A DNA stretch of 64,000 bases from assembly GCA_963838805.1 (NCBI GenBank), contig CAWISK010000010.1, positions 291,335 to 355,334 on the forward strand. The letters run 5' to 3'. Below are positions 11,581-43,855 of this stretch, piece after piece (position 1 is the stretch's first letter; every line of letters starts with the position of its first letter). Source of the DNA: an uncultured Pseudomonadota bacterium (GTDB taxonomy: Bacteria > Pseudomonadota > Alphaproteobacteria > Acetobacterales > Acetobacteraceae). Under the pieces are notes generated by a model. The model was not told where the DNA came from, searched no databases, and saw nothing but the letters and a program-made list of their open reading frames with translations. Made by a program: the position numbers and the translations under genes.

Positions 11581-11790
11581 ATGATGAAATACATCCCGCC
11601 GCTGATCGCTCTCGCCCTTGCCTGCCCCGCGCCGACATGGGCGGCGTCCGCGCCGGCCTCGCCGCATCCGCAGGCGATCTGCCATGCGGGGGTGATGCAT
11701 GCGGCATTCGCGTCTGCTGAGCAGCTTTGCCCCCGGCCGCTCGCCATGGCCCGCGTCGAGAAGCCGCATCGCCGCCCGCCGCGCACCTGA
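11581..11790 (+). CDS. hypothetical small secreted protein (69 aa)
   Basis: An AAGGA lies upstream of the ATG at 11581. Signal-peptide-like MMKYIPPLIALALACPAPTWAAS. No family recognised. Confidence 0.4.
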   Translation: MMKYIPPLIALALACPAPTWAASAPASPHPQAICHAGVMHAAFASAEQLCPRPLAMARVEKPHRRPPRT

Positions 11791-11856: not shown

Positions 11857-12486
11857 ATGACCCTCGACTACGCGGCCCTGCGCGCCACCCCGATCGCGAC
11901 CGAGCCTTTCCCTCACGTGGTTGTGCCGCATTTCGTCCCGGCAGCCTCCCTGTCGCGCGTCGTCGCCGATCTGCCGGAAATCTCCTCCCGCGGCTCGTTC
12001 CCGCCCTCGGCCTTGCGGCTCGGAGCAGCCGCGCGGGCGCTGATGTCGGAGCTGGAGGCACCCAGGCTGCGCACAGCCATTGCCGAGAAATTCGAGCTCG
12101 ATCTGGACGGCGCCGCGACGATGGTGACGTTGCGCGGCCAGACGAACGAGAGGGATGGCCGCATCCACTGCGACTCCGCCACGAAGCGGGTGACGGTGCT
12201 GCTGTATCTAAACCCGGGCAGCGCGCAATGGGCCGAGCAAGGCGGCAGCCTGCGCCTGCTGCGCGGCCCGGACGACATAGACGATTACGTGGTCGAGGTT
12301 CCGCCCGTGGACGGCACGCTGCTGGTCTTTCCCAACGGTCCCGGCACCTGGCACGGCCATCGCCGCTATATCGGACGGCGCTACGTGGTGCAGCTCAACT
12401 ACATGACGGCCGATGCCGCCGCGCGCTCCGAGTTGCGGCGGCACCGGATCAGCGCGGTCGTGAAACGGCTGACGCGCGCCGCATGA
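11857..12486 (+). CDS. 2OG-Fe(II) oxygenase superfamily protein
   Basis: HxD triad element RIHCDS, distal His in TWHGH, LLYLN...GGSLRL core. ATG 11857 preferred over the TTG that heads track ORF 11809..12486. Confidence 0.75.
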   Translation: MTLDYAALRATPIATEPFPHVVVPHFVPAASLSRVVADLPEISSRGSFPPSALRLGAAARALMSELEAPRLRTAIAEKFELDLDGAATMVTLRGQTNERDGRIHCDSATKRVTVLLYLNPGSAQWAEQGGSLRLLRGPDDIDDYVVEVPPVDGTLLVFPNGPGTWHGHRRYIGRRYVVQLNYMTADAAARSELRRHRISAVVKRLTRAA

Positions 12487-12914
12487 GCACGCCCGAGCGC
12501 GAAGCCGCGCAGCACCTGGTGCGCGCCTATTATGCCGCATTCGAGTCCGGCGACCGGAACTCCTTCCTGGCCCTGCTGACCGAGGACGTGGTGCATGAGA
12601 TCAGCCAGGGTGGGCGCGAGACCGGTCGCGATGCGTTCCGCCGCTTCATGGCGCACATGGACCGCTGCTACCGCGAGCGCGTCGCCGATCTGGTGGTGAT
12701 GGCGGACGAGACGGGCACCCGCGCCGCCGCCGAGTTCACCGTGCATGGCGAATATCTCGCAACCGATCCGGGCGTGCCGGCCGGCACGCCGGGGGCGGCC
12801 GGACAGCGCTACGTGCTGCCCGCCGGCGCGTTCTTCACGCTGCGCGACGGGCGGGTGGCGCGCATCAGCAACCATTACAATCTGGGCGACTGGGTCCGGC
12901 AGGTCGGCGGCTGA
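12483..12914 (+). CDS. SnoaL-like / NTF2-fold (ketosteroid isomerase-related) protein
   Basis: 143 aa: MSTPEREAAQHLVRAYYAAFESGDRNSFLALLTEDVVHE... The ATG overlaps the stop of the upstream oxygenase (ATGA). Confidence 0.7.
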   Translation: MSTPEREAAQHLVRAYYAAFESGDRNSFLALLTEDVVHEISQGGRETGRDAFRRFMAHMDRCYRERVADLVVMADETGTRAAAEFTVHGEYLATDPGVPAGTPGAAGQRYVLPAGAFFTLRDGRVARISNHYNLGDWVRQVGG

Positions 12915-12918
12915 GGGC

Positions 12919-14478
12919 CTAGCCGGCCAGCGTCTCGGCCAGTTCGGCAAGCTGCGTCTTCAGCACCTTTCCGGTCGGGCCGCAGGGCAGCGACGGCATC
13001 AGCGCGATGCGCGACGGGCGCTTGTACGGGGCCAGTTGCCGCGCCGCCCATTCGGCCAGCTCGGCCGGAGTGATGGCGGCGCCGGAAGTGGGCTGCACGA
13101 AGGCCAGGATCTCCTCGTTGCCTTCGGTCCGATGGCCGATCACCGCCGATTGCAGGACGCACGGATGCGCGGTCAGCACCGCCTCGACCTCCGCCGGATA
13201 GACGTTGAAGCCGTAGCGGATGATCAGCTCCTTGCTGCGGCCGACGATGGAGAGGTGGCCGTGGCGCATGCAGGCCAGGTCGCCGGTCCTGAACCAGCCT
13301 TCGGCGTCGATCGCGGCGCGGGTCGCCGCCACGTCCTTGTAGTATCCCCGCATCACGTTCGGGCCGCGCACCTGCAACTCGCCGACATCGCCATCGGCCG
13401 CGACCACGCCGCCATCGGCACCGACCAGCCGGATCTCCACGCCGGGCAGCACGCGCCCGACATTGCAATCCGACTGCGGCTGGTCCACGCGGGTCTGGGC
13501 GATGGTGGGCGAGCATTCGGTGATGCCGTAGCCGTTGTGCAGGACCAGACCGAAGGCGCGCTCGACATCGTCCTTGATCGCCTGGTCGAGCGGCGCGCCG
13601 CAGGCACCGAGCAGGCGCAGGCCCGGCGCCTCGATCGTGGCGAGGCGCTTGGCCTTCGCATACTCCAGCAGCAGCGCGAACATCGCCGGCGCGCCGAGCA
13701 GGATCGTCACGCGGTCCTGTTGCAGCGCCTTCAGCGCCGCGGCCGGGTTGAAGCGCAGGCAGAGCTGCAAGGTGGCTCCGTAAAGCAGCGTGCCCAGCAC
13801 GACCACCGCGAGCCCCACGATGTGCGAGACCGGCAGCACGCCATAGAAGCGGTCGTCGGGGCCGAGCGAGCGGACCGCGCCCGAGCTGCGCGCCATAAAC
13901 AGCAGGTTGCGATGCGTCAGCATGACGGCCTTGGGCGAACCGGTGCTGCCCGACGTATAAACCAGCGCCGCCACCTGGTCGGACGGGTCGTGCGCCACCG
14001 GCGATGGCTCGGCGCGGTCGTCCGGCTCGACAACGGCGACGGAGCCGAGGCCGGGCACGTCCTCGTCCACAGCGCCTATCCGGGTTGCGTGCGCGCGGGC
14101 CTGCGGCGAGGCCGAGGCGGTCAGAATGAGCAGCCGCGGCTGGCAGTGGCCGCAAATCTCCTGGAGTTCGCGCTCCGACAGCCGGGCATTCACCGCGACC
14201 ACCCAGGCGTCCAGCTCGGCCACGGCCAGGATCAGGGCGACGGCCGCGCGGCAGTTCTCGGTGACGATCACCACCCGGTCGCCGCCGCGCACGCCTTTTC
14301 CCGCGAGCCACCTCGCCGTGCCGGTCATCACCTCGGCCAACCGGCCATAGGACCAGGCGCCGTCGTGATCCACGATCGCCAGCCGGTCAGGGCAGCGCGC
14401 GGCCCAGGGGGCCACGACCTGGCTGATGCGCGATGGCGGTGTCGCAGGCCCCTCCCTTGCCTCCAGGCCGGAGAGCAT
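12919..14478 (-). CDS. class I adenylate-forming enzyme (acyl-CoA synthetase / fatty-acyl-AMP ligase-like)
   Basis: Core motifs YTSGSTGSPKAVMLTHRNL, GYGITECSP, WFRTGDLA, GRSKELIIRYGFNVYPAEVE, PTGKVLK. Start at MLSGLEA (ATG 14476-14478) inside track ORF 12919..14916. Confidence 0.88.
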   Translation of the reverse strand: MLSGLEAREGPATPPSRISQVVAPWAARCPDRLAIVDHDGAWSYGRLAEVMTGTARWLAGKGVRGGDRVVIVTENCRAAVALILAVAELDAWVVAVNARLSERELQEICGHCQPRLLILTASASPQARAHATRIGAVDEDVPGLGSVAVVEPDDRAEPSPVAHDPSDQVAALVYTSGSTGSPKAVMLTHRNLLFMARSSGAVRSLGPDDRFYGVLPVSHIVGLAVVVLGTLLYGATLQLCLRFNPAAALKALQQDRVTILLGAPAMFALLLEYAKAKRLATIEAPGLRLLGACGAPLDQAIKDDVERAFGLVLHNGYGITECSPTIAQTRVDQPQSDCNVGRVLPGVEIRLVGADGGVVAADGDVGELQVRGPNVMRGYYKDVAATRAAIDAEGWFRTGDLACMRHGHLSIVGRSKELIIRYGFNVYPAEVEAVLTAHPCVLQSAVIGHRTEGNEEILAFVQPTSGAAITPAELAEWAARQLAPYKRPSRIALMPSLPCGPTGKVLKTQLAELAETLAG

Positions 14479-14498
14479 CCGCGTGTTCCCGCCTGAGG

Positions 14499-15323
14499 CT
14501 ATTGCAGGACCAGACGCGAGTCCGCGGGCTTGCCGTGCTGCGGCACCTGCCGGGTCCGCCCGACCGCCTCGGAGATCGCCGTCCAGAACTCGATGCGCGC
14601 GGTGAGGGCGCGCACGGCGGCGTCCGCCGCCTCGGCCCATTTCTGCGCGTCGTCGCCGCAGAGATCGGCCAGCATGGCGATCGCCATCGGCGCGTGCTCG
14701 CCCTCGTCCAGATGGATGTGCCGGTCGAGATACTGCTCGAAAGTGCGCAGCGCGTCGCCGCGATCCGGAATGTTGTCGATGATCGGGCGGAACATGTTGG
14801 GAATGGCTTCCTCGCGCCCGAAGGTGAAGGCGGCGGCCACGACATGCGGCTTGTTGCTGGCGATGAAATCGAAGGTCGTGCGCACGAAAGCCCGGGCCAA
14901 TTCCGGCGCGCCGCAATCGCGCAGCGCCGTCTCCAGGTCGATGCCCTCGCCGATCAGCACGAAGAGGTCGTCGAGCTGCGACACATCGGCGCCCAATTCG
15001 GCCATCGCCCGGCGATAGAACTCCAGATGGCTGGTCGGCATCCCGTCGATCTCATCGGACTCTTCCTCCAGCACCATCTGGTTGATCAGCCGCCGCGCCC
15101 GCGCGCTGGGTGTGGGGCGCCACATCGAGTCGGTGCAGGTCAGGTGCCGCTGCAATGCCTTCAGCAGCGACATGAAATCCCACACTGCGAAGATGTGGTG
15201 CTCCATGAACACGCGCACATCGGCGACCGACGCCAGGCGGCCGTACATCTCGTGCGATGCCAGCTCGGCGCGCACGGGCTCGATGCGACGCAGCAGATTG
15301 TACACCCCGACGGCTGCCGACAT
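14499..15323 (-). CDS. DUF3050 (heme-oxygenase-like fold, MgoB-like) protein
   Basis: 274 aa with the family hallmark VFMEHHIFAVWDFMSLLKALQ and LEEESDE...SHLEFYRRAMAELGAD. It lies 20 nt upstream of the ligase gene on the same strand. Confidence 0.8.
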   Translation of the reverse strand: MSAAVGVYNLLRRIEPVRAELASHEMYGRLASVADVRVFMEHHIFAVWDFMSLLKALQRHLTCTDSMWRPTPSARARRLINQMVLEEESDEIDGMPTSHLEFYRRAMAELGADVSQLDDLFVLIGEGIDLETALRDCGAPELARAFVRTTFDFIASNKPHVVAAAFTFGREEAIPNMFRPIIDNIPDRGDALRTFEQYLDRHIHLDEGEHAPMAIAMLADLCGDDAQKWAEAADAAVRALTARIEFWTAISEAVGRTRQVPQHGKPADSRLVLQ

Positions 15324-15527
15324 GAGACTACCCCTCCAACTTCAATCGCTGGCGAGGCAAGGGGCGTGCCAGGAGGAAAAACTGTCCAGGTCAGCGGCTT
15401 AGCCGGAACCCTAGATCACGTCGTAAAATTTTCCGACGTCTGCTCCGCCGAGCAAGACACCGATCTGGACGCCAGCCTGGACCGCGTGCGAGACAACGAT
15501 GCTCCTCTCTGAAAGGGAGGCTAGCCC

Positions 15528-16335
15528 ATGTCGCGCATCATTCCGGCCCTCGGCGGTGTGCCGGAGACCATGCTCTGGACGCTCTACGCCCGCGCCAGCG
15601 AGGCGAAGCGCGAGGCGGGCATCCTGCGCGACCCGGAGGCGGTGCAACTCCTCGAACTCGCTCGACTATGATTTTGAACGCAAGTTCGGCGAGCCGAGCG
15701 TGCTTTACGCCGTGCGCGCAGCCCTGATGGACGGCGCGCTGCGGGCATGGCTCAGGCGGCATCCTGATGGCCTCGTCGTCTCGCTCGGCGAGGGCCTGGA
15801 GACCCAGGCCTGGCGCGTGGACAACGGCCGGATGCGCTGGCTTTCGGTCGATCTGCCGGAGGCGATCGAGGTGCGGGCGCGGCTATTGCCGCCGACCCCG
15901 CGCCTGTCTCATGTGGCCGCAAGCGTGCTGGAGCCGGCTTGGATGGAGGCAGTCGATGCGGCCGCCGGGCTATTCATCGTGGCTCAGGGGCTGTTCATGT
16001 ATCTTGACCCATCGCAGGTCGAACGACTGTTCAAGGATCTCGCGCGGCGCTTCCCGGAAGCAGAGTTGCTGTTCGACATCGTGCCGCGCCGGCTCTCGGA
16101 ATCGACCCTGCGCGGGCACGCGCACACGCAGGATTATGTGCTTCCGCCAATGCCGTGGGGCCTGGACCACGACGAGGTCGCGCCGACTCTGCGGCGGTGG
16201 CACCCCGGTCTCCGCGCCCTGCGGTTCCTGCCCTATCGCTACCCGACCCGGCGCCCCGCCTTGATCGAGGATTTGCTGGACCGGATCGTACCCGGCCGAA
16301 CGCCGCCCGCGAGCCTGGTCCAGGTTACGCTCTAG
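15528..16335 (+). pseudogene. class I SAM-dependent methyltransferase, TcmP / leucine carboxyl methyltransferase family (frame broken by a 1-nt insertion near 15654-15660)
   Basis: AAGGGAGG Shine-Dalgarno before ATG 15528. Frame A reads MSRIIPALGGVPETMLWTLYARASEAKREAGILRDPEAVQLLE and stops at 15669-15671. Frame B (track ORF 15499..16335) continues LDYDFERKFGEPS...VVSLGEGLETQ.... Confidence 0.8.
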
Positions 16336-16351
16336 GCATCCGCGCGCGGAT

Positions 16352-17437
16352 TCAGTCCGCCCGGCTCGCGGCATGCAGGCAATCAGATAACGTCGCGCCC
16401 AAGGCGCCCGCGTGCTCGGCGATCATGTCCAGATGGTCGCCGCTGACCGGCCTGACCACGAGACTCTGCGCCATCCTGCCCCAGATGATGTCCGGATGGG
16501 CCGGCAGATCATGATTGCCCACCGCCTCGATGAACGTGATCGTGCCGGGATAGAATCGCCGGCGGTAATGCGCGGCCGCGATGAATCCGGCCTCGATCAC
16601 CCGCTGCGTCGCCTGCGGCACGATATGCAGGTTCCTCTTCTGGCGAGCCTCGCCGCGGGCGCGGCCGCCGGCACCGAAATCGCTCAGCACCCCGCGTATG
16701 CGACTGATCAGATACGGCAGCGCCTCACCGGCCCGCAGCTCGCGCAGCCGGCCCGCGTGGTGACGGGCGCGCCGTCCCCAGATGCGGGCCTTGACCCCGA
16801 GCGGAAGATCCTTGGGATGGATGATGGTGTCGAGCAGCACCAGCAGCGCCACATTTTCCCCCGCCTGCATGAGCGCGCGCGCAATCTCCAGCGCGGTCAG
16901 GCCGCCCATGGAATAGCCGGCGAGGACATACGGGCCGTGCGGCTGCACGTCGCGGATCAGCGGCAGGTAGTGCGCGACCATCGCCTCGATCCGGTCGAGC
17001 GGGATTTCGCGTTCCGCGAGGCCCGGTGCCCGCAGGCCGTAGATCGGCCCACTCGCCTGGGTCGCCCGGGCCAGGGGCAGCAGGTCGATCGCCGAGCCGC
17101 TGACGCCCGGGGTGATGAACAGCGCCGGCCCCTCGCCGCCCGCTTTCAGCCGCACGATGAAGGACGGTCCTGCCGCCTGTTCCTCTTGGTCGAGCAGTTC
17201 CGCGAGAGTCGAGACGGTCGGCGCGTCGAACAGGGCCGTGGTCGGCAGCCGGACCCCTGTCGCCTCCTCGATCTCGACCGTCAGCCCCACCGCCATGATC
17301 GAGTCCCCGCCGAGATCGAAGAAATCGTCCTCCGCCCCGATCGAAGGGCATTGCAGCACCCGACTGAAGATGTCGGTCAGCAGCGAGACGGTTCCCGCGC
17401 GCTGCCCACGCCCCGGCACCTCCCCGACAGCCGTCAT
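16352..17437 (-). CDS. stand-alone carrier protein (PCP/ACP)-thioesterase didomain protein
   Basis: Phosphopantetheine site DDFFDLGGDSIMAV and alpha/beta-hydrolase TE with GYSMGG. Start at MTAVGEV (ATG 17435-17437, AAGGA about 9 nt upstream); alternative ATG at 17467. Confidence 0.85.
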   Translation of the reverse strand: MTAVGEVPGRGQRAGTVSLLTDIFSRVLQCPSIGAEDDFFDLGGDSIMAVGLTVEIEEATGVRLPTTALFDAPTVSTLAELLDQEEQAAGPSFIVRLKAGGEGPALFITPGVSGSAIDLLPLARATQASGPIYGLRAPGLAEREIPLDRIEAMVAHYLPLIRDVQPHGPYVLAGYSMGGLTALEIARALMQAGENVALLVLLDTIIHPKDLPLGVKARIWGRRARHHAGRLRELRAGEALPYLISRIRGVLSDFGAGGRARGEARQKRNLHIVPQATQRVIEAGFIAAAHYRRRFYPGTITFIEAVGNHDLPAHPDIIWGRMAQSLVVRPVSGDHLDMIAEHAGALGATLSDCLHAASRAD

Positions 17438-17827
17438 CGCCGGCGTCCTTTCCCGATCGAGCGTCATCACCGAGCACATTCCCACGCCCCGCCCTGAAGA
17501 CGCCACGTACAAGCAACTCACGTGCCGGCCACGGTGCCCAGACATTTTCGCGGTTGCTTCAGCGGCTTGCGACCAGCCCCGTCGCGCCGGTACGGACAGT
17601 CCGGCCAGACCTGTCAAGAATTCCGACACCTGCACCCGACATGTGACGGTGAATTTTACACACCGCCGATGCCCATGCCGGTTGAGCGTGGGCTCGGCCG
17701 GCCAAGACCTTGGCCGGGGCCGCTAATCCGTCTCGACCAGAAAATGGCATGTCAGTTGCTTATCCCGTGTCGAGCGCCGCGCCCCGGGCCGATCCCGCGG
17801 CACGGGCGCGATCCCGCAGGAGGCGAC

Positions 17828-19147
17828 GTGAAGCTCGAGACCCTGGCCATCCACGGCGGCTTCGATGGCGATCCGACCACCAAGGCGGTCGCCGTGCCGA
17901 TCTACCAGACCGTCGCCTTCTCCTTCGACAGCGCCGAGCACGGGGCCGCCCTGTTCGACCTCGCGGTGGAAGGCAACATCTACAGCCGCATCGGCAATCC
18001 GACCAATGCCGTGCTGGAACGCCGCGTCACGGAAATGGAGGGCGGCGTCGGCGCGCTCACCGTCCCCTCCGGGGCCGCCGCCGTGCATTACGCGGTCGCC
18101 AACATCATCGAGTCCGGCACCAACATCGTCTCGGTACCGCAGCTCTACGGCGCCACCTACACGCTGTTCGCGCATCTGCTGCCCAAGCAGGGGGTCGAGG
18201 CACGCTTCGCCGCGAGCGACAGTCCCGCCGATATCGAGGCGCTGATCGATGCCAAGACCCGCGCCGTCTATTGCGAGAGCGTCGGCAATCCGGCAGGCAA
18301 CATCGCCGATCTCGCGGGGCTCGCCGCGGTCGCGCACAAGCATGGCGTGCCGCTGATCGTGGACAACACGGTGGCGACACCGATCCTGCTGCGCCCGTTC
18401 GAGCACGGCGCCGACATCGTGATCCACGCCATGACCAAGTTCATCGGCGGCCACGGCACGACGCTGGGGGGCATCATCGTCGATAGCGGCCGGTTCGACT
18501 GGGCCGCGCATCGCGACCGCTTCGCCTTCATGAGCGAGCCGGAGCCGTCCTATCACGGCGTCGTCTATACTGAGCAGTTCGGCAACGCCGCCTATATCGC
18601 CCGCTGCCGCACCGTCTGCCAGCGCAACACCGGCTCCATGCTGGAACCGCTTGGCGCGTTCCTGCTGCTGCTGGGGCTGGAGACGCTGCCGCTGCGGATG
18701 CAGCGCCATCTCGAGAACGCGGCCGCCGTCGCCGATTTCCTGCGCCGCGATCCGCGCGTGGGCTGGGTGCAGTGGGCGGGCTTCCCGGACAGCCCTTACC
18801 ACGCGCTGGCACAACGCTACCTCGGCGGGCGCGGCGTCTCGATCCTGACTTTCGGCGTCAAGGGCGGGTTCGAGGCTGGGCGGCGCACCTTCAACGCGCT
18901 GGGGCTGTTCAAGCGCATGGTGAACATGGGCGACGCCAAGTCGCTCGCCACGCACCCGGCCTCGACCACGCACCGCCAGCTCTCGCCCGAGGAACATCGC
19001 CGGGCCGGTGTCACGCCGGACATGATCCGCCTGTCCGTGGGCATCGAGCATATCGACGACCTGCTGGCCGATCTCGACCAGGCGCTGGACGCGGCCGGCG
19101 CCGCGAACGGGCAGCCGGCAAACCGGCTCGCGGATGCGGCGGACTGA
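17828..19147 (+). CDS. metY: O-acetylhomoserine aminocarboxypropyltransferase / sulfhydrylase
   Basis: GTG start after GCAGGAGG. KLETLAIHGG...NPT...; PLP lysine context HAMTKFIGGHG. Cys/Met-metabolism PLP family. Confidence 0.92.
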   Translation: MKLETLAIHGGFDGDPTTKAVAVPIYQTVAFSFDSAEHGAALFDLAVEGNIYSRIGNPTNAVLERRVTEMEGGVGALTVPSGAAAVHYAVANIIESGTNIVSVPQLYGATYTLFAHLLPKQGVEARFAASDSPADIEALIDAKTRAVYCESVGNPAGNIADLAGLAAVAHKHGVPLIVDNTVATPILLRPFEHGADIVIHAMTKFIGGHGTTLGGIIVDSGRFDWAAHRDRFAFMSEPEPSYHGVVYTEQFGNAAYIARCRTVCQRNTGSMLEPLGAFLLLLGLETLPLRMQRHLENAAAVADFLRRDPRVGWVQWAGFPDSPYHALAQRYLGGRGVSILTFGVKGGFEAGRRTFNALGLFKRMVNMGDAKSLATHPASTTHRQLSPEEHRRAGVTPDMIRLSVGIEHIDDLLADLDQALDAAGAANGQPANRLADAAD

Positions 19148-19169: not shown

Positions 19170-20147
19170 ATGAGCGATCGCATCGACATCGGGCTGGTGA
19201 ACAACATGCCGGATTCGGCGCTCAAGGGCACCGAACGGCAGTTCCGGCATCTGCTGGAACAGGCGGCGGATGGGCTCGCCGTCCGGCTGCATCTGTTCAC
19301 GCTACCGGAAATCGCCCGCTCCGAGCGCGCCCGCCAGCACTGCCGCGAAAGCTACGGCAGCCTCGGCGATCTGCTGTCCAGCCGGCTCGACGCGCTGATC
19401 GTCACCGGTGCCGAGCCGCAGACGGCGCGCCTGCGCGACGAGCCGTACTGGCGGTCGCTCACCGCGGTCTTCGACTGGGCGGCCGACACGACCGTGTCCA
19501 CCATCCTGTCCTGTCTCGCTGCACACGCGGGCGTGCTGCATTTCGACGGGATCGAGCGCACGAAGCTACCGCAAAAATGCCTCGGCCGTTTCGACCTGTC
19601 CTGCGTCGCCGAACATCCCCTGACCCGCGGCGCGCCGACACCGTGGCGCGTGCCGCATTCGCGCTGCAACGAGGTGGGCGAGGCGGCGCTCGTCGCCTCC
19701 GGCTACACCGTGCTGAGCCGCTCTGAACAGGCCGGGATCGATCTGTTCGCGAAGCAGCGGGGCAGCCTGTTCCTGTTCTGCCAGGGCCATCCCGAATACG
19801 GACGCGAAACGCTGTACAAGGAGTATCAGCGCGACATACGCCGCTACCTGACCGGCGAACGCGACACCTATCCCGCGACTCCCTCGGGCTATTTCGACAG
19901 GGACAGCGAAATGCTGCTCGCGCAATTCGCGGCGCGTGCCACGCAACAGCGCGATCTTGATGTGCTGCGTGCCTTCCCGCCCGTTCTGCTCGACGGCGCA
20001 CGGGCATCCGGCTGGTCGTCGGTGGCGAACTGCGTCTATGGCAACTGGCTTAGTCATATCGCCGCGGAGAAGGCCGCCCGTCTCGCCGCCGTGAGCAGCG
20101 CGCCGCCGCGTGCGGTCGCGCTGCGCGAGCCGATGCTGGCGGCGTAG
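19170..20147 (+). CDS. metA: homoserine O-acyltransferase, MetA (HTS) family
   Basis: IDIGLVNNMPDSALKGTERQF..., CQGHPEY motif. Lies 22 nt downstream of metY. Confidence 0.85.
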   Translation: MSDRIDIGLVNNMPDSALKGTERQFRHLLEQAADGLAVRLHLFTLPEIARSERARQHCRESYGSLGDLLSSRLDALIVTGAEPQTARLRDEPYWRSLTAVFDWAADTTVSTILSCLAAHAGVLHFDGIERTKLPQKCLGRFDLSCVAEHPLTRGAPTPWRVPHSRCNEVGEAALVASGYTVLSRSEQAGIDLFAKQRGSLFLFCQGHPEYGRETLYKEYQRDIRRYLTGERDTYPATPSGYFDRDSEMLLAQFAARATQQRDLDVLRAFPPVLLDGARASGWSSVANCVYGNWLSHIAAEKAARLAAVSSAPPRAVALREPMLAA

Positions 20148-24337: not shown

Positions 24338-25117
24338 ATGGATGCCAGTTCCGCGCTCGCGGCGCCGCCGCCGCTGCCGGCGGGTGGCCGCGGCCTGCAC
24401 CGCTTCGCCAATCCCGGCCGGTTCCTGCGGCTCTCCGGGCGCGTGCTGCCGCCGCTCACGGGCTTCGCGGTCGCGGTCAGTGCCATCGGACTCGGCTGGG
24501 GGCTGTTCTTCTCGCCGGCCGACTGGCAGCAGGGCGACGTGGTGCGGATCATGTACCTGCACGTGCCCTGCGCCTGGCTTGCCTCGGGTGGCTATGCGGC
24601 TCTGGCGGCCTGCTCGGCGGCCTCGCTGATCTGGCGGCATCCGCTGGCCGATCTGGCCGCCGTCGAGATCGGGCCGGTGGGGGCGGCGGCGACCGGACTG
24701 TGCCTCGCCAGCGGCAGCCTGTGGGGCAAGCCCACCTGGGGCACCTGGTGGGTGTGGGACGCGCGGCTGACCTCGGTGCTGGTGCTGTTCTTCCTGTATC
24801 TGGGGCATATCGCCCTGGTGCGCGCCTTCGACGACCCGCAGCGCGGCTATCGCGCTGGGGCGATCCTGGCGCTGGTGGGCGTCATCAACCTGCCGATCAT
24901 CAAATATTCGGTCGATTGGTGGAACACGCTGCACCAGCCGGCCAGCATCACGTTGACCGGGGCACCCACCATGTATGTCGGAATGCTCTGGCCGCTGCTT
25001 ATCTCCGCCCTGGGCCTCTCGGCCGGCTTCGCCGCCCTGGTCGTGGCACGGCTGCGCGCGGCGATCATGGAGCGGCGCATCCGCGCCCTGCTGATGGCGC
25101 GTGCGCATTCGGCATGA
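24338..25117 (+). CDS. ccmC: heme exporter protein C (cytochrome c maturation system I)
   Basis: WWVWDARLTS Trp-rich motif, conserved His context MYLHVP, 259 aa polytopic. Confidence 0.94.
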   Translation: MDASSALAAPPPLPAGGRGLHRFANPGRFLRLSGRVLPPLTGFAVAVSAIGLGWGLFFSPADWQQGDVVRIMYLHVPCAWLASGGYAALAACSAASLIWRHPLADLAAVEIGPVGAAATGLCLASGSLWGKPTWGTWWVWDARLTSVLVLFFLYLGHIALVRAFDDPQRGYRAGAILALVGVINLPIIKYSVDWWNTLHQPASITLTGAPTMYVGMLWPLLISALGLSAGFAALVVARLRAAIMERRIRALLMARAHSA

Positions 25118-25130
25118 CAGGCGGGACCGA

Positions 25131-25274
25131 ATGAACCATCTGCCCTACATCGCCGCCGCCTATGGCCTCGCACTCGCGGTCATCCTGTTTCTATCGGTCG
25201 ATGCCGCCTTGCGGACGATGCGAGCGCGGCGGCGCCTGGCAGCCATCGACCCGCGCGCGGGTGGCGAGGCATGA
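25131..25274 (+). CDS. ccmD: heme exporter protein D
   Basis: Not in the ORF track (47 aa): MNHLPYIAAAYGLALAVILFLSVDAALRTMRARRRLAAIDP.... The stop overlaps the ccmE ATG (ATGA). Position between ccmC and ccmE is canonical. Confidence 0.8.
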   Translation: MNHLPYIAAAYGLALAVILFLSVDAALRTMRARRRLAAIDPRAGGEA

Positions 25275-25786
25275 CGCGCAAGCACCGGCGCATGGTCATG
25301 CTGCTGGCCTGCGGCCTGGGCCTGGGGTCGGCGGCGGCGCTGACACTTTCGGCCCTCGGCAGCAGCATGACGTTCTTCCTGGCCCCGGCCGAGATCGCCG
25401 CCAAGGCGCCGCCGCCCGGCCGGGAATTCCGCCTGGGCGGGCTGGTGAAGGAAGGCAGCCTGACGCGGCACGAGCAGGACGGCACGCCCACCGCCCGCTT
25501 CACCCTCACCGACGGCAAGGGAAGCGTGACCGTCGAATATGCCGGCATCCTGCCCGACTTGTTCCGCGAGGGTCAGGGCATCGTGGCCCTCGGCACCCTG
25601 GACCGCAGCGGCGTGTTCCGCGCGAACGAGGTGCTGGCCAAGCACGACGAGACCTACATGCCCAAGGAAGTGGTGGAAGCGTTGAAGAAATCCGGCCACT
25701 GGGATCCCGCCGCGGGCAAGCCGCCTCCCGCTGCCACCTGGAACGATCTCTCGCTCGCCAAGGCCGGCGCCCAGGCTGGCGGATGA
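25271..25786 (+). CDS. ccmE: cytochrome c maturation heme chaperone CcmE
   Basis: FRLGGLVKEGS..., LAKHDETYMPKE heme-binding His motif, 171 aa. Confidence 0.94.
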   Translation: MTRKHRRMVMLLACGLGLGSAAALTLSALGSSMTFFLAPAEIAAKAPPPGREFRLGGLVKEGSLTRHEQDGTPTARFTLTDGKGSVTVEYAGILPDLFREGQGIVALGTLDRSGVFRANEVLAKHDETYMPKEVVEALKKSGHWDPAAGKPPPAATWNDLSLAKAGAQAGG

Positions 25787-27765
25787 CCCAGCCCTCGGTT
25801 CCCGAACTCGGGCATTTCGCGCTGGCGCTGGCGGTGGCCTTCGGCTTCGCGCAGGCGATCCTGCCGCTCTGGGGCGCGCAGCGGCGCGACGCGCGACTGA
25901 TCGCGGCAGCACCCGCCATCGCGCTCGGCACGTTCATCTGCCTCGCCACGGCGTTCCTGTGCCTGATGTACAGCTCTGTGACGGACGATTTCTCGGTGCT
26001 GAACATCGCCGAGAACAGCCACAGCCTGAAGCCGCTGCTCTACAAGATCACCGGCGTCTGGGGCGACCACGAAGGCTCGATCCTGCTGTGGTGCCTGATC
26101 CTGTCGGTGTGCGGGGCCGCCGTCGCGATCTTCGGGACGAACCTGCCCTCGGCATTGCGAGCGCGCGTGCTGGGGGTGATGGGCCTGTCGTCCTGCGGCT
26201 TCATGCTGTTCGCGCTGTTGGCGAGCAACCCGTTCCTACGCATCTGGCCGCCGCCGATCGACGGGCGGGACATGAACCCGCTGCTGCAGGATCCCGGTCT
26301 CGCCTTCCACCCGCCGATCCTCTATCTCGGCTATGTCGGCATGTCGGTGCCGTTCGCCTTCGCGGTGGCGGCGCTGATCGAGGGCCGTGTCGATGCCGCC
26401 TGGGGCCGTTGGGTGCGGCCCTGGACCTTGGCCGCCTGGTGCTGCCTGACCGGCGGCATCGCGCTCGGCTCGTGGTGGGCGTATTACGAGCTGGGCTGGG
26501 GCGGGTTCTGGTTCTGGGATCCGGTGGAGAACGCCTCGCTGCTGCCCTGGCTGACCGGCACGGCGCTGCTGCATTCGGCGATCGTGGTGGAAAAGCGCGA
26601 ATCGCTGAAGGTCTGGACCACGCTGCTCGCCATCGGCACGTTCTCGCTCAGCTTGTCGGGGACGTTCCTGGTGCGCTCCGGCATTCTCAACTCGGTCCAC
26701 TCCTTCGCGCAGGATCCGGCGCGCGGCGTGTTCATCCTGGGGCTGCTGGCGCTGGTGATCGGCGGCTCGCTGGCATTGTTCGCCTGGCGGGCGCCCTTGC
26801 TTGCCGCCTCCGGCATTTTCGCACCGCTGTCGCGCGAGGGCGCGTTGGTGCTGAACAATATCCTGCTCTGCTCCATCGCCGCCGTGGTGCTGACCGGCAC
26901 CACCTTCCCGTTGTTTTCCGACCTGCTGTTCGGCCAGAAATTCTCGGTGGGGGCACCGTTTTTCAACGCGACCGTCCTGCCGCTGGCCGTGCCGGTGTTC
27001 ATCGCCATGTCGATCGGGCCGACATTGGCCTGGAAGCGCGCTTCGCTGCGCCCCGCCCTGTCGCGGCTGTGGTGGGCGGCGCTGGCGGCGCTCGCGATCG
27101 CCCTGTTCGCCTCGCTGCGCGCGAAACTGCTGCCGACGCTGGCGTTTGGTGCGGCAGCCTGGCTGATCCTGGGGGCGGCGGCGGAGGTGATCGGCCGCAT
27201 CCGGCTGTTCCGCGTCCCGTTGCGCGCGAGCCTCGCCCGGCTGGGCAGCCTGCCGCGCGGCTCGTTCGGTACCACCATCGCCCATGCCGGGCTGGGCGTG
27301 ACCATCGCCGGCATCGCCGGGATGTCGCTCGCCAGCAGCCGCGTGGTGCTGCTGCATCCCGGCCAGTCCACCACCATTGCCGGCTATACCTGGACCTTGG
27401 AGGGCGTGCGCGACGCTCCCGGCCCGAACTATGCGGCGCGGGTCGCGACCGTCGATATCAGCCGCCACGGCCACCATATCGTCACACTGGAGCCGGCGCG
27501 GCGCAGCTTCCCGGTGCAGCAGGTGACGACGACCGAGGCGCGCATCAGCACCAACGGTTTCCGTGACCTCTATGCCGTGCTGGGCGATGAGCGTGACGGG
27601 GCGGCGGTGATGCGGTTGCACGTCAACCCGCTGGCACCCTGGATCTGGCTCGGTGCCCTGATCATGGCGGCCGGCGGTATGCTGTCGCTGTCCGATCGGC
27701 GGCTGCGGGTCGGGGCGCCCGCCCGCCGCGGGCTGCCGGCAGCGCCCCCGGTGCCGGCCGAATAA
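25783..27765 (+). CDS. ccmF: heme lyase CcmF/NrfE family subunit
   Basis: MTQPSVPELGHFALALA... inside track ORF 25162..27765. WGGFWFWDPVENAS Trp-rich motif. ATGA overlap with ccmE. Confidence 0.95.
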   Translation: MTQPSVPELGHFALALAVAFGFAQAILPLWGAQRRDARLIAAAPAIALGTFICLATAFLCLMYSSVTDDFSVLNIAENSHSLKPLLYKITGVWGDHEGSILLWCLILSVCGAAVAIFGTNLPSALRARVLGVMGLSSCGFMLFALLASNPFLRIWPPPIDGRDMNPLLQDPGLAFHPPILYLGYVGMSVPFAFAVAALIEGRVDAAWGRWVRPWTLAAWCCLTGGIALGSWWAYYELGWGGFWFWDPVENASLLPWLTGTALLHSAIVVEKRESLKVWTTLLAIGTFSLSLSGTFLVRSGILNSVHSFAQDPARGVFILGLLALVIGGSLALFAWRAPLLAASGIFAPLSREGALVLNNILLCSIAAVVLTGTTFPLFSDLLFGQKFSVGAPFFNATVLPLAVPVFIAMSIGPTLAWKRASLRPALSRLWWAALAALAIALFASLRAKLLPTLAFGAAAWLILGAAAEVIGRIRLFRVPLRASLARLGSLPRGSFGTTIAHAGLGVTIAGIAGMSLASSRVVLLHPGQSTTIAGYTWTLEGVRDAPGPNYAARVATVDISRHGHHIVTLEPARRSFPVQQVTTTEARISTNGFRDLYAVLGDERDGAAVMRLHVNPLAPWIWLGALIMAAGGMLSLSDRRLRVGAPARRGLPAAPPVPAE

Positions 27766-28295
27766 TGGAACGGCGCCGTCTGCTGATGCTGGCGCCGCTC
27801 GGCATCGCCGGCGTCGTCGGCGTGTCGTTCTTCGCCATGCTGCGCGGGCTGCAAAGCGGGGAGTTCAACCCGCGCGGCGTACCCTCGCCGCTCCTGGGCC
27901 ACCACGTGCCGCCATTCCGGCTGCCGGGTCTGACCGATGCCGATCTGGTCACCGGCCGGCCAATCCTGGTCAATTTCTTCGCGTCCTGGTGCGTACCCTG
28001 CGTCGAGGAAACGCCTGTGCTGCTCGACCTCAAGCAGGGCGGTGTCACGCTGATCGGCATCGCCTACAAGGACAAGCCGCGGGCCACCGCCGCCTTTCTC
28101 GCGCGCCACGGCGACCCCTATGCACGGGTCTCGGCCGACGCGCCGGGAACGGTTGCGATCGACTGGGGGGTGAGCGGCGTGCCCGAGACCTACCTGGTCG
28201 ATCCGCGCGGCATCGTCCGCTGGCACTACGCCCTGCCGCTCACCGAATCGGTGGTGGCCGACGAGTTGGCGCCGCTGCTGCGGCACTACGCATGA
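27765..28295 (+). CDS. ccmG: thiol:disulfide interchange protein DsbE/CcmG
   Basis: Thioredoxin motif WCVPC and GVPETYLVD. TAATG overlap with ccmF. Confidence 0.93.
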   Translation: MERRRLLMLAPLGIAGVVGVSFFAMLRGLQSGEFNPRGVPSPLLGHHVPPFRLPGLTDADLVTGRPILVNFFASWCVPCVEETPVLLDLKQGGVTLIGIAYKDKPRATAAFLARHGDPYARVSADAPGTVAIDWGVSGVPETYLVDPRGIVRWHYALPLTESVVADELAPLLRHYA

Positions 28296-42457: not shown

Positions 42458-42528
42458 GGCGGCGGCCCGGCTGGCTGCTCCGCATGGAGCGCTCCGGGCG
42501 CCAACGCTCGCAACCCATCCGGCCGGGA

Positions 42529-43041: not shown

Positions 43042-43242
43042 TGGCGGGCCGCTCGCATCACCACTCCGGGTCGCATCCCATAGCGGGAAAACCATTTGAC
43101 TTCAAAGGCCGGGCGTCGCAGCCTTGCGGAAGCGAAATGCTGGCCGCGGCAGGAGAGAACATATCTCTTGAGCGGGCAGTCCATCCGCGGCCGGCTCCGC
43201 TGAACCCGAGCCGTCCGCATCCGCAGCGCGAGAGAGGGCACC

Positions 43243-43809: not shown

Positions 43810-43855
43810 ACCGGTTCCGGCGCCTGGACACGCGTCCGACGCCGGCACGTACAGC

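What the first reader, a model, noticed from the sequence alone, without database searches (positions are those of the whole stretch)
11857..17437. Orphan six-gene locus: stand-alone adenylating enzyme, carrier-protein/thioesterase didomain, DUF3050 (MgoB-like) protein, TcmP-type methyltransferase, SnoaL-like protein and 2OG oxygenase
Six genes in 5.6 kb look like a minimal non-canonical thiotemplate pathway:
- A FadD/FAAL-like ligase with all adenylation core motifs (12919-14478).
- A DUF3050 heme-oxygenase-fold protein translationally close to the ligase (14499-15323, 20-nt gap).
- A free-standing PCP-TE (DDFFDLGGDS plus GYSMGG, 16352-17437).
- A TcmP/LCM-family methyltransferase.
- A 2OG-Fe(II) oxygenase and a SnoaL-like protein, whose start and stop overlap (ATGA).

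There is no condensation or KS domain. DUF3050 is, from memory, the family of MgoB in the Pseudomonas mgo (mangotoxin-generating) operon, where it accompanies an NRPS. Its chemistry is poorly defined.

The SnoaL gene and the ligase gene converge with only 4 nt between their stops (12914 and 12919). The methionine genes metY-metA flank the locus on the right.
Basis: partly seen in the sequence, partly recalled or inferred. Interest (0 to 1): 0.65.

Follow-up and report, generated by a model that had tools for sequence, protein, structure and literature searches.

The report
Carrier-protein oxidation cassette tied to methionine genes
The six genes are real, but the conserved unit is a three-gene operon (carrier protein-thioesterase, HamA-type iron oxygenase, adenylating enzyme) that travels with, and seems to share sigma-54 promoters with, the methionine genes metY-metA; this link is undescribed and its product is unknown.

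Summary
All six genes are present at the stated coordinates and belong to the stated families. The locus boundary is wrong, however.

- **Lineage-specific genes.** The 2OG oxygenase and SnoaL genes occur only in the two closest syntenic relatives. An orthologous methyltransferase occurs in only one.
- **Conserved core.** PCP-TE, a DUF3050 (HamA-family) oxygenase and an adenylating enzyme sit next to metY-metA in six different genomic contexts and three gene orders.
- **Reach beyond the family.** An apparently unrelated soil lineage has orthologues of the ligase (56%), PCP-TE, MetY and MetA, but no HamA.
- **Shared regulation.** In the window, metY, PCP-TE and HamA each have a sigma-54-type promoter 50-100 nt downstream of a GTCGG-N5-TTTACA site. 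This layout is conserved in relatives.
- **Sister cassette.** It replaces the acyl-CoA-synthetase-like ligase with a true NRPS amino-acid adenylation domain.
- **Methyltransferase frameshift.** It is one extra A at 15655, absent from two other sequencing runs, so probably an assembly error.

Best reading: a substrate from the homoserine/homocysteine branch is loaded on the carrier, oxidised there by the HamA-like Fe/2OG enzyme, and released by the thioesterase. The product and its role are not established.

The parts
16352..17437 (-). Free-standing PCP-thioesterase didomain. Carrier Ser in GGDS; thioesterase Ser (GYSMGG), Asp (+27) and His (GDH).
   Evidence: Pfam PP-binding 65 bits and Thioesterase 84 bits. 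EntF PCP-TE and Pks13 TE are the best PDB matches. Orthologues at 40-65% identity lie next to a HamA-like gene in L081-L084, L087, L121 and L123.
14499..15323 (-). HamA-family (DUF3050/PF11251) heme-oxygenase-like oxygenase
   Evidence: PF11251 298 bits, full length. E=1.6e-54 to the HamA crystal structure 9VWB. H43, E87, H99, R170, H202, E209 and R243 align with HamA H40, E84, H96, R167, H199, E206 and R240. All except E209 are invariant in the 30-sequence alignment.
12919..14478 (-). Type-1 adenylating enzyme, acyl-CoA-synthetase/4CL-like. A4 motif LPVSHIVG, with no Asp235 equivalent.
   Evidence: AMP-binding 277 bits. Best NCBIfam and PDB matches are CoA ligases. 55-73% identical orthologues occur in L081-L083, L087, L121, L123 and L124. 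Pocket positions are conserved as IV[SA]LGCGPTK, except T at the first position in L121.
17828..19147 (+). metY, O-acetylhomoserine sulfhydrylase (GTG start)
   Evidence: TIGR01326 590.7 bits against a cut-off of 495.1. 70-87% identical copies are linked to the cassette in every related locus examined.
19170..20147 (+). metA, homoserine O-acyltransferase (start at 19170, or 19134)
   Evidence: NF003776 405.8 bits against a cut-off of 358. The database copy is 325 aa. It is linked with metY and the cassette in L081-L084, L087, L121, L123, L004 and L124.
17745..17759 (+). Sigma-54-type promoter (-24/-12), TGGCATGTCAGTTGC, upstream of metY
   Evidence: One of only two exact matches in 64 kb, where 0.34 are expected. 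An equivalent element occurs in L081, L082, L083 and L121.
17645..17660 (+). UAS-like site GACGGTGAATTTTACA, about 100 nt upstream of the metY promoter
   Evidence: Conserved in L081, L082, L083, L087 and L121, and more loosely in L123.
17612..17627 (-). UAS-like site GTCGGAATTCTTGACA, facing the PCP-TE gene
   Evidence: It lies back to back with the metY-side site, and the same arrangement is seen in relatives.
17513..17527 (-). Sigma-54-type promoter CGGCACGTGAGTTGC (one mismatch), upstream of PCP-TE
   Evidence: Exact counterparts lie at the same relative place in L081, L082, L083, L087 and L121.
15357..15371 (-). Sigma-54-type promoter TGGCACGCCCCTTGC, upstream of the HamA-like gene
   Evidence: The second exact match in the window. 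Counterparts lie before HamA in L083 (exact) and L081 (one mismatch).
15422..15437 (-). UAS-like site GTCGGAAAATTTTACG, upstream of the HamA promoter
15528..16335 (+). TcmP/LCM-family methyltransferase. Accessory; the apparent frameshift is an extra A at 15655.
   Evidence: PF04072 37 bits. Single-base difference in runs X1 and X2. The corrected 268-aa protein aligns end to end with the L081 orthologue. No sigma-54 promoter precedes it.
11857..12486 (+). 2OG-Fe(II) oxygenase (PF13640). Lineage-specific neighbour, probably a separate unit.
   Evidence: Present only in the window, L081 and L082. No shared promoter motif.
12483..12914 (+). SnoaL-like / ketosteroid-isomerase-related protein, translationally coupled to the 2OG oxygenase
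   Evidence: Same distribution as the 2OG oxygenase.

Best explanation
The functional unit is a five-gene module: metA, metY, PCP-TE, a HamA-like oxygenase and an adenylating enzyme. In the window and its closest relatives it appears to be expressed from sigma-54 promoters that share one upstream activator site.

Proposed mechanism:
1. MetA and MetY make homocysteine, or a related gamma-substituted 2-aminobutyrate, from homoserine. This step is inferred from family membership.
2. The adenylating enzyme activates a carboxylate from this branch and loads it as a thioester on the phosphopantetheine arm of the PCP. The enzyme class is shown. The acceptor and the substrate are inferred.
3. The HamA-like mononuclear Fe/2-oxoglutarate heme-oxygenase-like enzyme oxidises the tethered substrate. 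This is inferred from the one characterised member, which acts only on a carrier-bound amino acid.
4. The fused thioesterase releases the oxidised product. Its catalytic triad is shown to be intact.

The methyltransferase in this genome, and the decarboxylase, Asn-synthase-like and ATP-grasp genes in other genomes, would be lineage-specific tailoring steps. The 2OG oxygenase and SnoaL pair is probably unrelated. The product is most likely a small, oxidised (possibly N-oxygenated) methionine- or homocysteine-derived metabolite or signal.
For: **Linkage**
- The order metA<-metY<- | ->PCP-TE->HamA->ligase occurs in the window and in L081, L082, L083, L087/L088, L121 and L123, with different outer flanks.
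- L084/L001 has one operon: PCP-TE-HamA-metY-metA-adenylating enzyme.
- L004 has HamA-adenylating enzyme-metY-metA.
- L124/L125 has orthologues of the ligase (56%), PCP-TE (41%), MetY (71%) and MetA (48%). MetY, MetA and the ligase share one same-strand gene run; the two PCP-TE genes lie on the other strand. There is no HamA.

**Shared regulation**
- The only two exact TGGCAY-N5-TTGC matches in 64 kb (0.34 expected) lie just upstream of HamA and metY, in the right orientation.
- A one-mismatch copy lies before PCP-TE.
- Each is 50-100 nt downstream of a GTCGG-N5-TTTACA site.
- The layout recurs in L081, L082, L083, L121 and partly L087.

**Carrier-dependent oxidation**
- HamA (9VWB) did not modify free valine. 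It added oxygen to T-domain-bound N-hydroxyvaline in the presence of 2OG; an R240A mutant gave no product (PMC12522199).
- The window protein keeps all the named ligands.

**Amino-acid substrate in the sister cassette**
- The L084 and L004 enzymes are NRPS-type A domains: L084 scores 295 bits on TIGR01733, and both carry FDVHVWE and NGKVDR/GGKVDR.
- Both have the identical specificity code DVWGLGSIAK.

**Common descent**
- All HamA-likes from cassettes with known context fall in one clade of a neighbour-joining tree without support values. The HamA-likes of radical-SAM clusters fall elsewhere.
Against: - No experiment or expression data exist. No RNA run holds the locus.
- The window's ligase lacks the Asp that binds an alpha-amino group. 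Its substrate may therefore not be an amino acid, and it could make a CoA thioester instead of loading the PCP.
- Homocysteinyl thioesters cyclise readily to the thiolactone, which argues against homocysteine itself as the tethered substrate.
- MetY and MetA look like ordinary housekeeping enzymes. Both pass curated cut-offs, and MetY diverges like Mdh, SucC and SucD. I could not test whether other copies exist in these genomes.
- HamA's chemistry rests on a single paper, and in that system a separate N-oxygenase acts first. That enzyme is absent here.
- 55-57% identical DUF3050 proteins occur in clusters where no carrier-protein domain is annotated.
- The sigma-54 promoters are sequence matches only.
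Confidence: 0.42

Rival explanations
1. A self-contained six-gene orphan pathway (ligase, DUF3050, PCP-TE, methyltransferase, 2OG oxygenase, SnoaL), with metY-metA as unrelated neighbours.
For: All six genes are adjacent and intact once the sequence error is removed. All six are present in L081, and five of them in L082.
Against: - L081 and L082 are close relatives in the same chromosomal context, with Mdh 92-94% identical. Their synteny is therefore weak evidence.
- The 2OG oxygenase and SnoaL genes are absent from L083, L087, L121, L123, L084, L004 and L124.
- The methyltransferase is absent from L082, L087, L121, L123 and L084, and is non-orthologous in L083.
- Neither accessory unit has the sigma-54/UAS pair.
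- metY-metA are always linked to the trio.
Confidence: 0.1
2. A sulfur- or methionine-limitation system. The ligase tethers an organosulfur carboxylic acid, for example a methylthio- or mercapto-acid. The HamA-like oxygenase cleaves the C-S bond oxidatively. The released sulfide or methanethiol is captured by MetY on the O-acyl-homoserine made by MetA, and the thioesterase clears the carbon skeleton.
For: - The trio is co-regulated and co-located with the sulfur-fixing step of methionine synthesis.
- The ligase is of the carboxylic-acid (CoA-ligase) type, not an amino-acid A domain.
- From general knowledge: DmdB-type ligases feed methanethiol to MetY-type enzymes during DMSP catabolism. Sulfur-starvation genes include Fe/2OG oxygenases. 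The sigma-54 activator SfnR controls organosulfur use in Pseudomonas.
Against: - No DUF3050 member is known to cleave C-S bonds.
- Catabolic pathways normally use CoA, not a dedicated PCP-TE.
- The sister cassette uses an NRPS-type amino-acid A domain.
- The variable tailoring genes (methyltransferase, decarboxylase, AsnB-like, ATP-grasp) look biosynthetic.
Confidence: 0.15
3. An acyl-donor cycle for homoserine activation. The ligase and PCP regenerate an acyl-thioester that MetA uses in place of acetyl- or succinyl-CoA. MetY then releases the acid again. HamA and the thioesterase would have editing or accessory roles.
For: - Ligase, PCP-TE, MetA and MetY are exactly the four components shared by the Acetobacteraceae cassettes and L124.
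- This MetA belongs to a divergent clade. It scores only 126-135 bits on the canonical succinyl and acetyl MetA models.
Against: - There is no precedent for a carrier-protein-dependent MetA.
- The model gives no role to the oxygenase, which is always present in Acetobacteraceae.
- It gives no role to an NRPS-type amino-acid A domain in L084 and L004.
- A fused thioesterase would waste the donor.
Confidence: 0.06
4. The adjacency to metY-metA is inherited synteny without functional meaning. The trio is an ordinary small NRPS-like cluster of unknown product.
For: All HamA-containing cassettes seen so far that could be assigned to a taxon come from one family, Acetobacteraceae, and all are MAGs. 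MetY evolves like a housekeeping gene.
Against: - The linkage survives three different gene orders and at least six different flanking contexts.
- metY-metA sit inside the operon in L084 and L004.
- The link recurs with orthologous ligase and PCP-TE genes in L124, which has no HamA.
- The transcription units share promoter and UAS motifs.
Confidence: 0.08

Closest known systems
ham / pvf / mgo clusters (HamA-G of Burkholderia cenocepacia, PvfA-D, MgoBCAD): diazeniumdiolate and pyrazine-N-oxide signal biosynthesis
   Same: - They contain a DUF3050/HamA-family heme-oxygenase-like enzyme together with a thiotemplate (adenylation plus carrier) system.
- HamA acts on the carrier-bound substrate (PMC12522199).
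- The metal and 2OG ligands are conserved.
   Different: - There is no AurF-like N-oxygenase (HamC/PvfB/MgoC).
- There is no A-T-R NRPS. Here the adenylating enzyme stands alone and is CoA-ligase-like, and the carrier is fused to a thioesterase rather than a reductase.
- There is no Polyketide_cyc2 protein (HamE/PvfD/MgoD).
- The link to metY-metA and to sigma-54 promoters is not reported for those clusters.
Isonitrile lipopeptide core (ScoA-E / Rv0096-0101 type): acyl-ACP ligase, ACP, thioesterase, Fe/2OG dioxygenase (from general knowledge)
   Same: The logic is the same: a stand-alone ANL ligase loads a small acid on a free carrier, a thioesterase processes and releases it, and a non-heme iron/2OG enzyme oxidises it. 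No condensation domain is needed for the core.
   Different: - The oxygenase family differs (TauD-like rather than heme-oxygenase-like).
- That thioesterase has a hotdog fold and is not fused to the carrier.
- There is no link to methionine genes.
Bes pathway for terminal-alkyne amino acids (BesA-E) (from general knowledge)
   Same: It combines a heme-oxygenase-like oxidase, an enzyme of the Cys/Met-metabolism PLP family, Fe/2OG oxygenases and an ATP-grasp ligase, all acting on an amino acid.
   Different: - It works on free amino acids, with no carrier protein.
- BesB is a diverged PLP enzyme, whereas MetY here passes the curated O-acetylhomoserine sulfhydrylase threshold.
Protein-thiocarboxylate-dependent methionine synthesis (HcyS/HcyF/HcyD with MetY, Wolinella) (from general knowledge)
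   Same: It is a precedent for MetY working together with an adenylating enzyme, a small carrier protein and a releasing hydrolase encoded beside it.
   Different: The carrier there is ubiquitin-like with a C-terminal thiocarboxylate, and the activating enzyme is ThiF-like. There is no phosphopantetheine carrier, no ANL enzyme and no oxygenase.

Membership tests
HamA / DUF3050 (PF11251) heme-oxygenase-like oxygenases | Full-length match to the family profile | tested here: met
   PF11251 297.7 bits, profile 1-233 of 233. E=1.6e-54 to 9VWB over residues 10-260.
HamA / DUF3050 (PF11251) heme-oxygenase-like oxygenases | Iron ligands and 2OG-binding residues of HamA (H40, E84, H96, H199, R167, R240, E206) | tested here: met
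   The aligned residues H43, E87, H99, H202, R170, R243 and E209 are all identical. All except E209 are invariant across 30 homologues. The residue list comes from PMC12522199. The paper's 'Glu184' could not be placed in the alignment.
HamA / DUF3050 (PF11251) heme-oxygenase-like oxygenases | Fe(II)/2OG-dependent oxidation of a carrier-protein-bound substrate | not testable with these tools
   Needs enzyme assays. Only the adjacency to a PCP is shown.
ham/pvf/mgo-type cluster | AurF-like diiron N-oxygenase (HamC/PvfB/MgoC) in the cluster | tested here: not met
   No such domain in the six genes or in any cassette locus.
ham/pvf/mgo-type cluster | NRPS with A-T-R architecture (HamD/PvfC/MgoA) | tested here: not met
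   The adenylating enzyme stands alone and the carrier is fused to a thioesterase.
ham/pvf/mgo-type cluster | Polyketide_cyc2 protein (HamE/PvfD/MgoD) | tested here: not met
   The only cyclase-like gene is SnoaL_2, a different family, found in three loci only.
Thiotemplate (NRPS-like) system | Carrier domain with a phosphopantetheinylation Ser in GGxS | tested here: met
   PP-binding 65 bits and DLGGDS.
Thiotemplate (NRPS-like) system | Type I thioesterase with a Ser-Asp-His triad | tested here: met
   PF00975 84 bits. GYSMGG, Asp 27 residues later as in EntF, and GDH near the C-terminus.
Thiotemplate (NRPS-like) system | NRPS-type adenylation domain with Asp235 and Lys517 | tested here: not met
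   - The window enzyme has SHIVG at the A4 motif, with Ile at position 235. Lys517 is present.
- The feature is met in the sister cassettes L084 and L004: FDVHVWE in both, and TIGR01733 at 295 bits for L084.
Thiotemplate (NRPS-like) system | Condensation or ketosynthase domain | tested here: not met
   None in the locus or in the cassette loci.
Fatty acyl-AMP ligase (FAAL) | FAAL-specific insertion and closest relatives being FAALs | tested here: inconclusive
   No FAAL appears among the 60 best PDB matches, which are CoA ligases, luciferases and A domains. The protein is 519 aa long. The insertion itself was not mapped.
MetY (O-acetylhomoserine sulfhydrylase) | Score above the curated family cut-off | tested here: met
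   TIGR01326 590.7 against 495.1.
MetA (homoserine O-acyltransferase) | Score above the curated family cut-off | tested here: met
   NF003776 405.8 against 358. The protein scores only 126-135 bits on the canonical succinyl and acetyl MetA models.
Sigma-54 (RpoN) promoter | -24 TGGCAC and -12 TTGC with 5-nt spacing, upstream of a gene, with an upstream activator site | tested here: met
   Exact matches at 15357-15371 (-) and 17745-17759 (+); 0.34 expected in 64 kb. They are conserved in relatives together with the UAS-like site. A sigma-54 activator gene in the window (35869-37236) shows that the organism uses RpoN.
Sigma-54 (RpoN) promoter | RpoN- and activator-dependent transcription | not testable with these tools
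   No RNA data are available.

The most novel reading that the evidence does not exclude
The five-gene module is a previously undescribed, sigma-54-controlled, carrier-protein-dependent branch of methionine metabolism. Newly made homocysteine, methionine or a gamma-substituted analogue is tethered to a dedicated PCP. A HamA-type Fe/2OG enzyme then N-oxygenates or otherwise oxidises it without the usual partner N-oxygenase. The released product would be an oxime-, nitroso- or hydroxylamine-type signal or antimetabolite. The adenylating enzyme has been swapped at least once between an NRPS-type and a CoA-ligase-type protein.
Probability: 0.2. Interest if true: 0.75.

Novelty: new variant of a known kind. 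Interest (0 to 1): 0.58.

Why it matters
- **A minimal system for HamA chemistry.** DUF3050/HamA enzymes are thought to take part in N-N bond and diazeniumdiolate formation, but their chemistry is still poorly defined. Here a HamA-type enzyme works with only a carrier, a loader and a thioesterase, and without the partner N-oxygenase. That would be a clean system for working out what the family does.
- **An unreported link to primary metabolism.** The constant link to metY-metA, the apparent sigma-54 control of these methionine genes, and the non-orthologous replacement of the adenylating enzyme are not described in the literature I could search. They suggest that a branch of homoserine/homocysteine metabolism in soil Acetobacteraceae, and in an apparently unrelated soil lineage, feeds a carrier-bound pathway.
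- **A lesson for annotation.** The primary-metabolism genes beside a small cluster can be its most conserved members.

Tried and rejected
- **Exact-protein look-up** of the window's HamA-like protein found nothing.
- **Genome-collection scan for DUF3050** returned 80 loci, mostly Bacteroidota, Actinomycetota and Acidobacteriota. Only L001 and L004 had parts of the cassette.
- **Metagenome scan** gave no relative above 48% identity and no cassette.
- **Riboswitch search.** Rfam found nothing in 9-23 kb at E<=0.1, so there is no known SAM riboswitch before metY.
- **Hidden oxygenase in L124.** The unknown 310-aa protein there is not a heme-oxygenase-like enzyme: hhalign probability 0.3% and no Pfam hit.
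- **FVG (gvg) cluster** was rejected as a relative. It has a heme-oxygenase-domain protein but no carrier, ligase or MetY.
- **Literature searches** for PF11251, the A-domain code, carrier protein plus O-acetylhomoserine, and sigma-54 plus metY found nothing relevant.
- **Repeats** were ruled out as the cause of the two AT-skew dips. They coincide with genes for the membrane proteins CcmF and GDPD.
- **The last protein search (MetA)** showed a large cloud of 50-55% identical soil homologues and no cultured host. It did not settle whether these are housekeeping or dedicated copies.
- **Substrate of the type-1 ligase** could not be assigned from sequence.

Full report
**1. Observation**

| Gene | Coordinates | Strand |
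|---|---|---|
| 2OG-FeII_Oxy_3 | 11857-12486 | + |
| SnoaL_2 / TIGR02096 | 12483-12914 | + |
| AMP-binding enzyme | 12919-14478 | - |
| DUF3050 (PF11251) | 14499-15323 | - |
| LCM/TcmP-type methyltransferase | 15528-16335 | + |
| PP-binding plus Thioesterase didomain | 16352-17437 | - |

- The ATGA overlap, the 4-nt gap between the convergent stops and the 20-nt HamA-ligase gap are as described.
- The left flank holds sucD, sucC, mdh and zapE. The right flank holds metY (TIGR01326, above cut-off) and metA (NF003776, above cut-off).
- The samples that hold near-identical sequence are soil metagenomes. The closest relatives are uncultured Acetobacteraceae MAGs.

**2. The methyltransferase frameshift**

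- The gene starts at 15528, after a GGGAGG ribosome-binding site, and changes frame near 15655.
- Contigs from two other runs, at least 99% identical, were laid over 8.7 kb. They show a single indel relative to the window: one base missing at 15655 in X2. X1's contig ends at that point with a tail that fits the same deletion.
- Removing that A gives a 268-aa protein that aligns end to end with the 268-aa orthologue in L081.
- The essential flagellar gene flhA is likewise split into two frames in the window: FHIPEP profile positions 2-299 in 34064-35860 and 333-654 in 33742-34743. The assembly therefore seems to carry indel errors.
- The frameshift is thus most likely an artefact, not evidence of decay.

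**3. What is conserved**

| Locus | HamA-like identity | Arrangement |
|---|---|---|
| L081 | 84% | All six genes, same chromosomal site |
| L082 | 81% | Same site, no methyltransferase |
| L083 | 80% | No 2OG oxygenase or SnoaL; a non-orthologous LCM enzyme and an ATP-grasp gene; different outer flanks |
| L087/L088 | 54% | metA<-metY<- divergent from PCP-TE->HamA->ligase, plus a PLP decarboxylase; unrelated housekeeping flanks |
| L121 | 59% | Same core, plus a decarboxylase and an Asn-synthase-like gene; unrelated flanks |
| L123 | 58% | Same core, nothing extra; unrelated flanks |
| L084 (= L001) | 60% | One operon: PCP-TE, HamA, metY, metA, adenylating enzyme |
| L004 | 51% | HamA, adenylating enzyme, metY, metA in a row; no PCP-TE detected |

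- The constant set is therefore PCP-TE, the HamA-like gene, an adenylating enzyme, metY and metA. The 2OG oxygenase/SnoaL pair and the methyltransferase are lineage-specific.
- In a neighbour-joining tree of the 120 best DUF3050 hits (no support values), all cassette proteins with known context fall in one clade of about 33 sequences.
- The 55-57% identical proteins of Bradyrhizobium-type genomes sit elsewhere in the tree. They belong to a quite different cluster with radical-SAM enzymes, split transketolase and a decarboxylase, in which no carrier-protein domain is annotated.
- Most DUF3050 genes in other phyla are not near PCP-TE or metY. An ANL ligase is, however, their commonest conserved neighbour, present in 19 of about 120 loci.

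**4. Beyond Acetobacteraceae**

- The PCP-TE belongs to a large family of free-standing didomain proteins in soil bacteria. Many are labelled 'acetoacetyl-CoA synthetase' by one source, which looks like a misannotation.
- One such locus (L124/L125, forest soil) encodes the following:
  - a ligase 56% identical to the window's, as close as the ligases of the more distant Acetobacteraceae cassettes;
  - PCP-TE at 41% identity, MetY at 71% and MetA at 48%;
  - a second PCP-TE, a branched-chain-type aminotransferase and an acetolactate-synthase-like TPP enzyme;
  - a cupin, a flavin N-hydroxylase-like gene and homoserine dehydrogenase;
  - no HamA.
- There metY and metA lie in one same-strand gene run with the ligase, with gaps of at most about 76 nt.
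- The link between ligase, PCP-TE, MetY and MetA is thus not just inherited synteny within one family.

**5. Shared regulation**

- The 316-517-bp divergent region between metY and PCP-TE carries two back-to-back copies of GTCGG-N5-TTTACA (TGT-N11-ACA), one facing each gene. These are conserved in L081, L082, L083 and L121, as a single exact copy in L087, and more loosely in L123.
- About 100 nt downstream of each lies a sigma-54-type -24/-12 element, TGGCAY-N5-TTGC.
- The window has only two exact matches to that element in 64 kb, against 0.34 expected:
  - 17745-17759 (+), before metY;
  - 15357-15371 (-), before the HamA-like gene, which has its own UAS-like copy at 15422-15437.
- A one-mismatch element at 17513-17527 (-) precedes PCP-TE.
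- The same two-way layout occurs in L081, L082, L083 and L121, and on the PCP-TE side in L087.
- In L083 and L081, where other genes separate PCP-TE from HamA as in the window, HamA again has its own element.
- No such element precedes the methyltransferase or the 2OG oxygenase/SnoaL pair.
- The organism has at least one sigma-54 activator, a FlbD-like gene at 35869-37236 in the flagellar cluster. No activator gene is linked to the cassette.
- The L084 and L004 versions lack these motifs.
- These promoters are sequence predictions only. No RNA data exist.

**6. The proteins**

*HamA-like protein*
- It matches the only solved family member, HamA (9VWB), at E=1.6e-54. It keeps every residue the authors name as an iron or 2OG ligand, apart from one that I could not place.
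- That paper reports a mononuclear iron site and 2OG binding. It found no activity on free valine. Oxygen was added to valine bound to the NRPS thiolation domain after the N-oxygenase HamC had acted.
- Earlier genetics gave the family no clear role.

*PCP-TE*
- It has the carrier Ser and an intact Ser-Asp-His triad, and resembles EntF and Pks13 termini.

*Adenylating enzymes*

| | Type 1 | Type 2 |
|---|---|---|
| Found in | window, L081-L083, L087, L121, L123, L124 | L084, L004 |
| Class | acyl-CoA-synthetase/4CL-like | NRPS-type A domain |
| A4 motif | LPxSH[IT]VG; no Asp at the position that binds an alpha-amino group | FDVHVWE |
| Pocket residues | conserved | specificity code DVWGLGSIAK in both |
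| Identity | 47-73% among themselves | 45% to each other, 25% to type 1 |
| Other | | L084: TIGR01733 295 bits, just under its 317.4 cut-off |

- From memory, the type-2 code shares six positions each with the Ser and Orn codes but lacks their polar and acidic specificity residues. That would fit a neutral, unbranched side chain of methionine or homocysteine size. This is a lead, not a test.
- The swap between two unrelated adenylating enzymes in otherwise homologous cassettes suggests that both load the same carrier.

**7. Interpretation**

- The best-supported model is a small thiotemplate pathway coupled to the homoserine-to-homocysteine branch.
  1. An acid from this branch is loaded on the PCP.
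  2. The HamA-like Fe/2OG enzyme oxidises it while it is tethered.
  3. The fused thioesterase releases it.
  4. Lineage-specific tailoring follows.
- The parts, their conservation, their linkage to metY-metA and the shared promoter-like motifs are shown. The acceptor of the ligase, the substrate, the HamA reaction and the product are inferred.
- I give this model 0.42.
- The rivals, each described with its evidence in its own section, are:
  - an organosulfur-scavenging system feeding MetY (0.15);
  - meaningless synteny (0.08);
  - an acyl-donor cycle for MetA (0.06).
- An open point I could not settle is whether the linked metY-metA are the only copies in these genomes. MetY diverges like Mdh, SucC and SucD between close relatives, and MetA has thousands of 50-55% identical soil homologues.

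**8. Comparison and novelty**

- The locus works like the ham/pvf/mgo systems in pairing a HamA-family enzyme with a carrier-bound substrate.
- It fails three of their defining features: the AurF-like N-oxygenase, the A-T-R NRPS and the Polyketide_cyc2 protein. It should not be filed as a member.
- Its logic (free ligase, free carrier, thioesterase, iron/2OG oxygenase, no condensation domain) also resembles the isonitrile-lipopeptide core.
- The constant partnership with metY-metA, the apparent sigma-54 control and the replacement of the adenylating enzyme are not described in the papers I could search.
- I rate it a new variant of a known kind, of moderate to good interest. The main limits are that every carrier is an uncultured MAG and that the product is unknown.

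Noticed in passing
window 33742-35860 (- strand): The flagellar export gene flhA (FHIPEP) is split into two reading frames. Profile positions 2-299 lie in ORF 34064-35860 and positions 333-654 in ORF 33742-34743. This is a second apparent frameshift in the window, in a gene unlikely to be dead, so it points to indel errors in the assembly.
   Followed up: partly
L124 1-15441 and L125 (same cluster): A soil-bacterium cluster with two PCP-TE genes, a branched-chain-type aminotransferase and an acetolactate-synthase-like TPP enzyme. It also has an orthologue of the window's ligase (56%), a cupin, an unknown 310-aa protein, metA, metY, a flavin N-hydroxylase-like gene and homoserine dehydrogenase. 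There is no DUF3050. It may be a second version of the same pathway idea.
   Followed up: partly
L126 / L127: An aminotransferase IV, PCP-TE, TPP enzyme, aldehyde dehydrogenase and a ligase 43% identical to the window's lie next to a hybrid PKS-NRPS and an Sfp-type phosphopantetheinyl transferase. No metY is seen within the piece held.
   Followed up: no
L085, L086, L122: DUF3050 proteins 55-57% identical to the window's sit in a conserved Bradyrhizobium-type cluster. It contains a phosphodiesterase, a DegT aminotransferase, split transketolase, a SPASM radical-SAM enzyme, a B12 radical-SAM enzyme, an Orn/DAP decarboxylase and TldD/PmbA, and no carrier-protein domain is annotated. The family is therefore not always carrier-dependent.
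   Followed up: no
L022, L040, L042, L060, L076 (actinomycetes); L008, L017, L032, L049 (Streptomyces): In actinomycetes, DUF3050 genes lie in clusters with ketosynthase-like genes, a pyruvate-dehydrogenase-E1-beta-like gene, an SDR and one or two ANL ligases. The ANL ligase is the commonest conserved neighbour of DUF3050 across the loci fetched (19 of about 120).
   Followed up: partly
window 35869-37236 (- strand): A sigma-54 enhancer-binding protein (Sigma54_activat, HTH_8) lies inside the flagellar gene cluster and is probably FlbD-like. It shows that the organism uses RpoN. It is unlikely to be the activator of the met/HamA promoters, but this was not tested.
   Followed up: partly
window 11581-11790 (+ strand): A 69-aa ORF with a signal-peptide-like N-terminus (MMKYIPPLIALALACPAPTWAASAP...) lies just upstream of the 2OG oxygenase. 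It is weakly conserved at the same place in L081 and L082 (50-53% over the C-terminal 36-40 residues) and has no Pfam match.
   Followed up: partly
window 25000-28000 and 42000-45000: Two strong negative AT-skew dips coincide with genes for the membrane proteins CcmF (25162-27765) and a membrane-anchored glycerophosphodiester phosphodiesterase (43856-45742). They are not repeats.
   Followed up: yes
PCP-TE homologues P0138-P0240: Many free-standing PCP-TE proteins of soil metagenomes are named 'acetoacetyl-CoA synthetase' by one source, although they have only PP-binding and thioesterase domains. This is probably a propagated misannotation.
   Followed up: no
L084 7900-8457: In the single-operon version of the cassette, a 185-aa protein with a weak carboxymuconolactone-decarboxylase/AhpD-like match precedes PCP-TE. 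It may be a further accessory gene.
   Followed up: no
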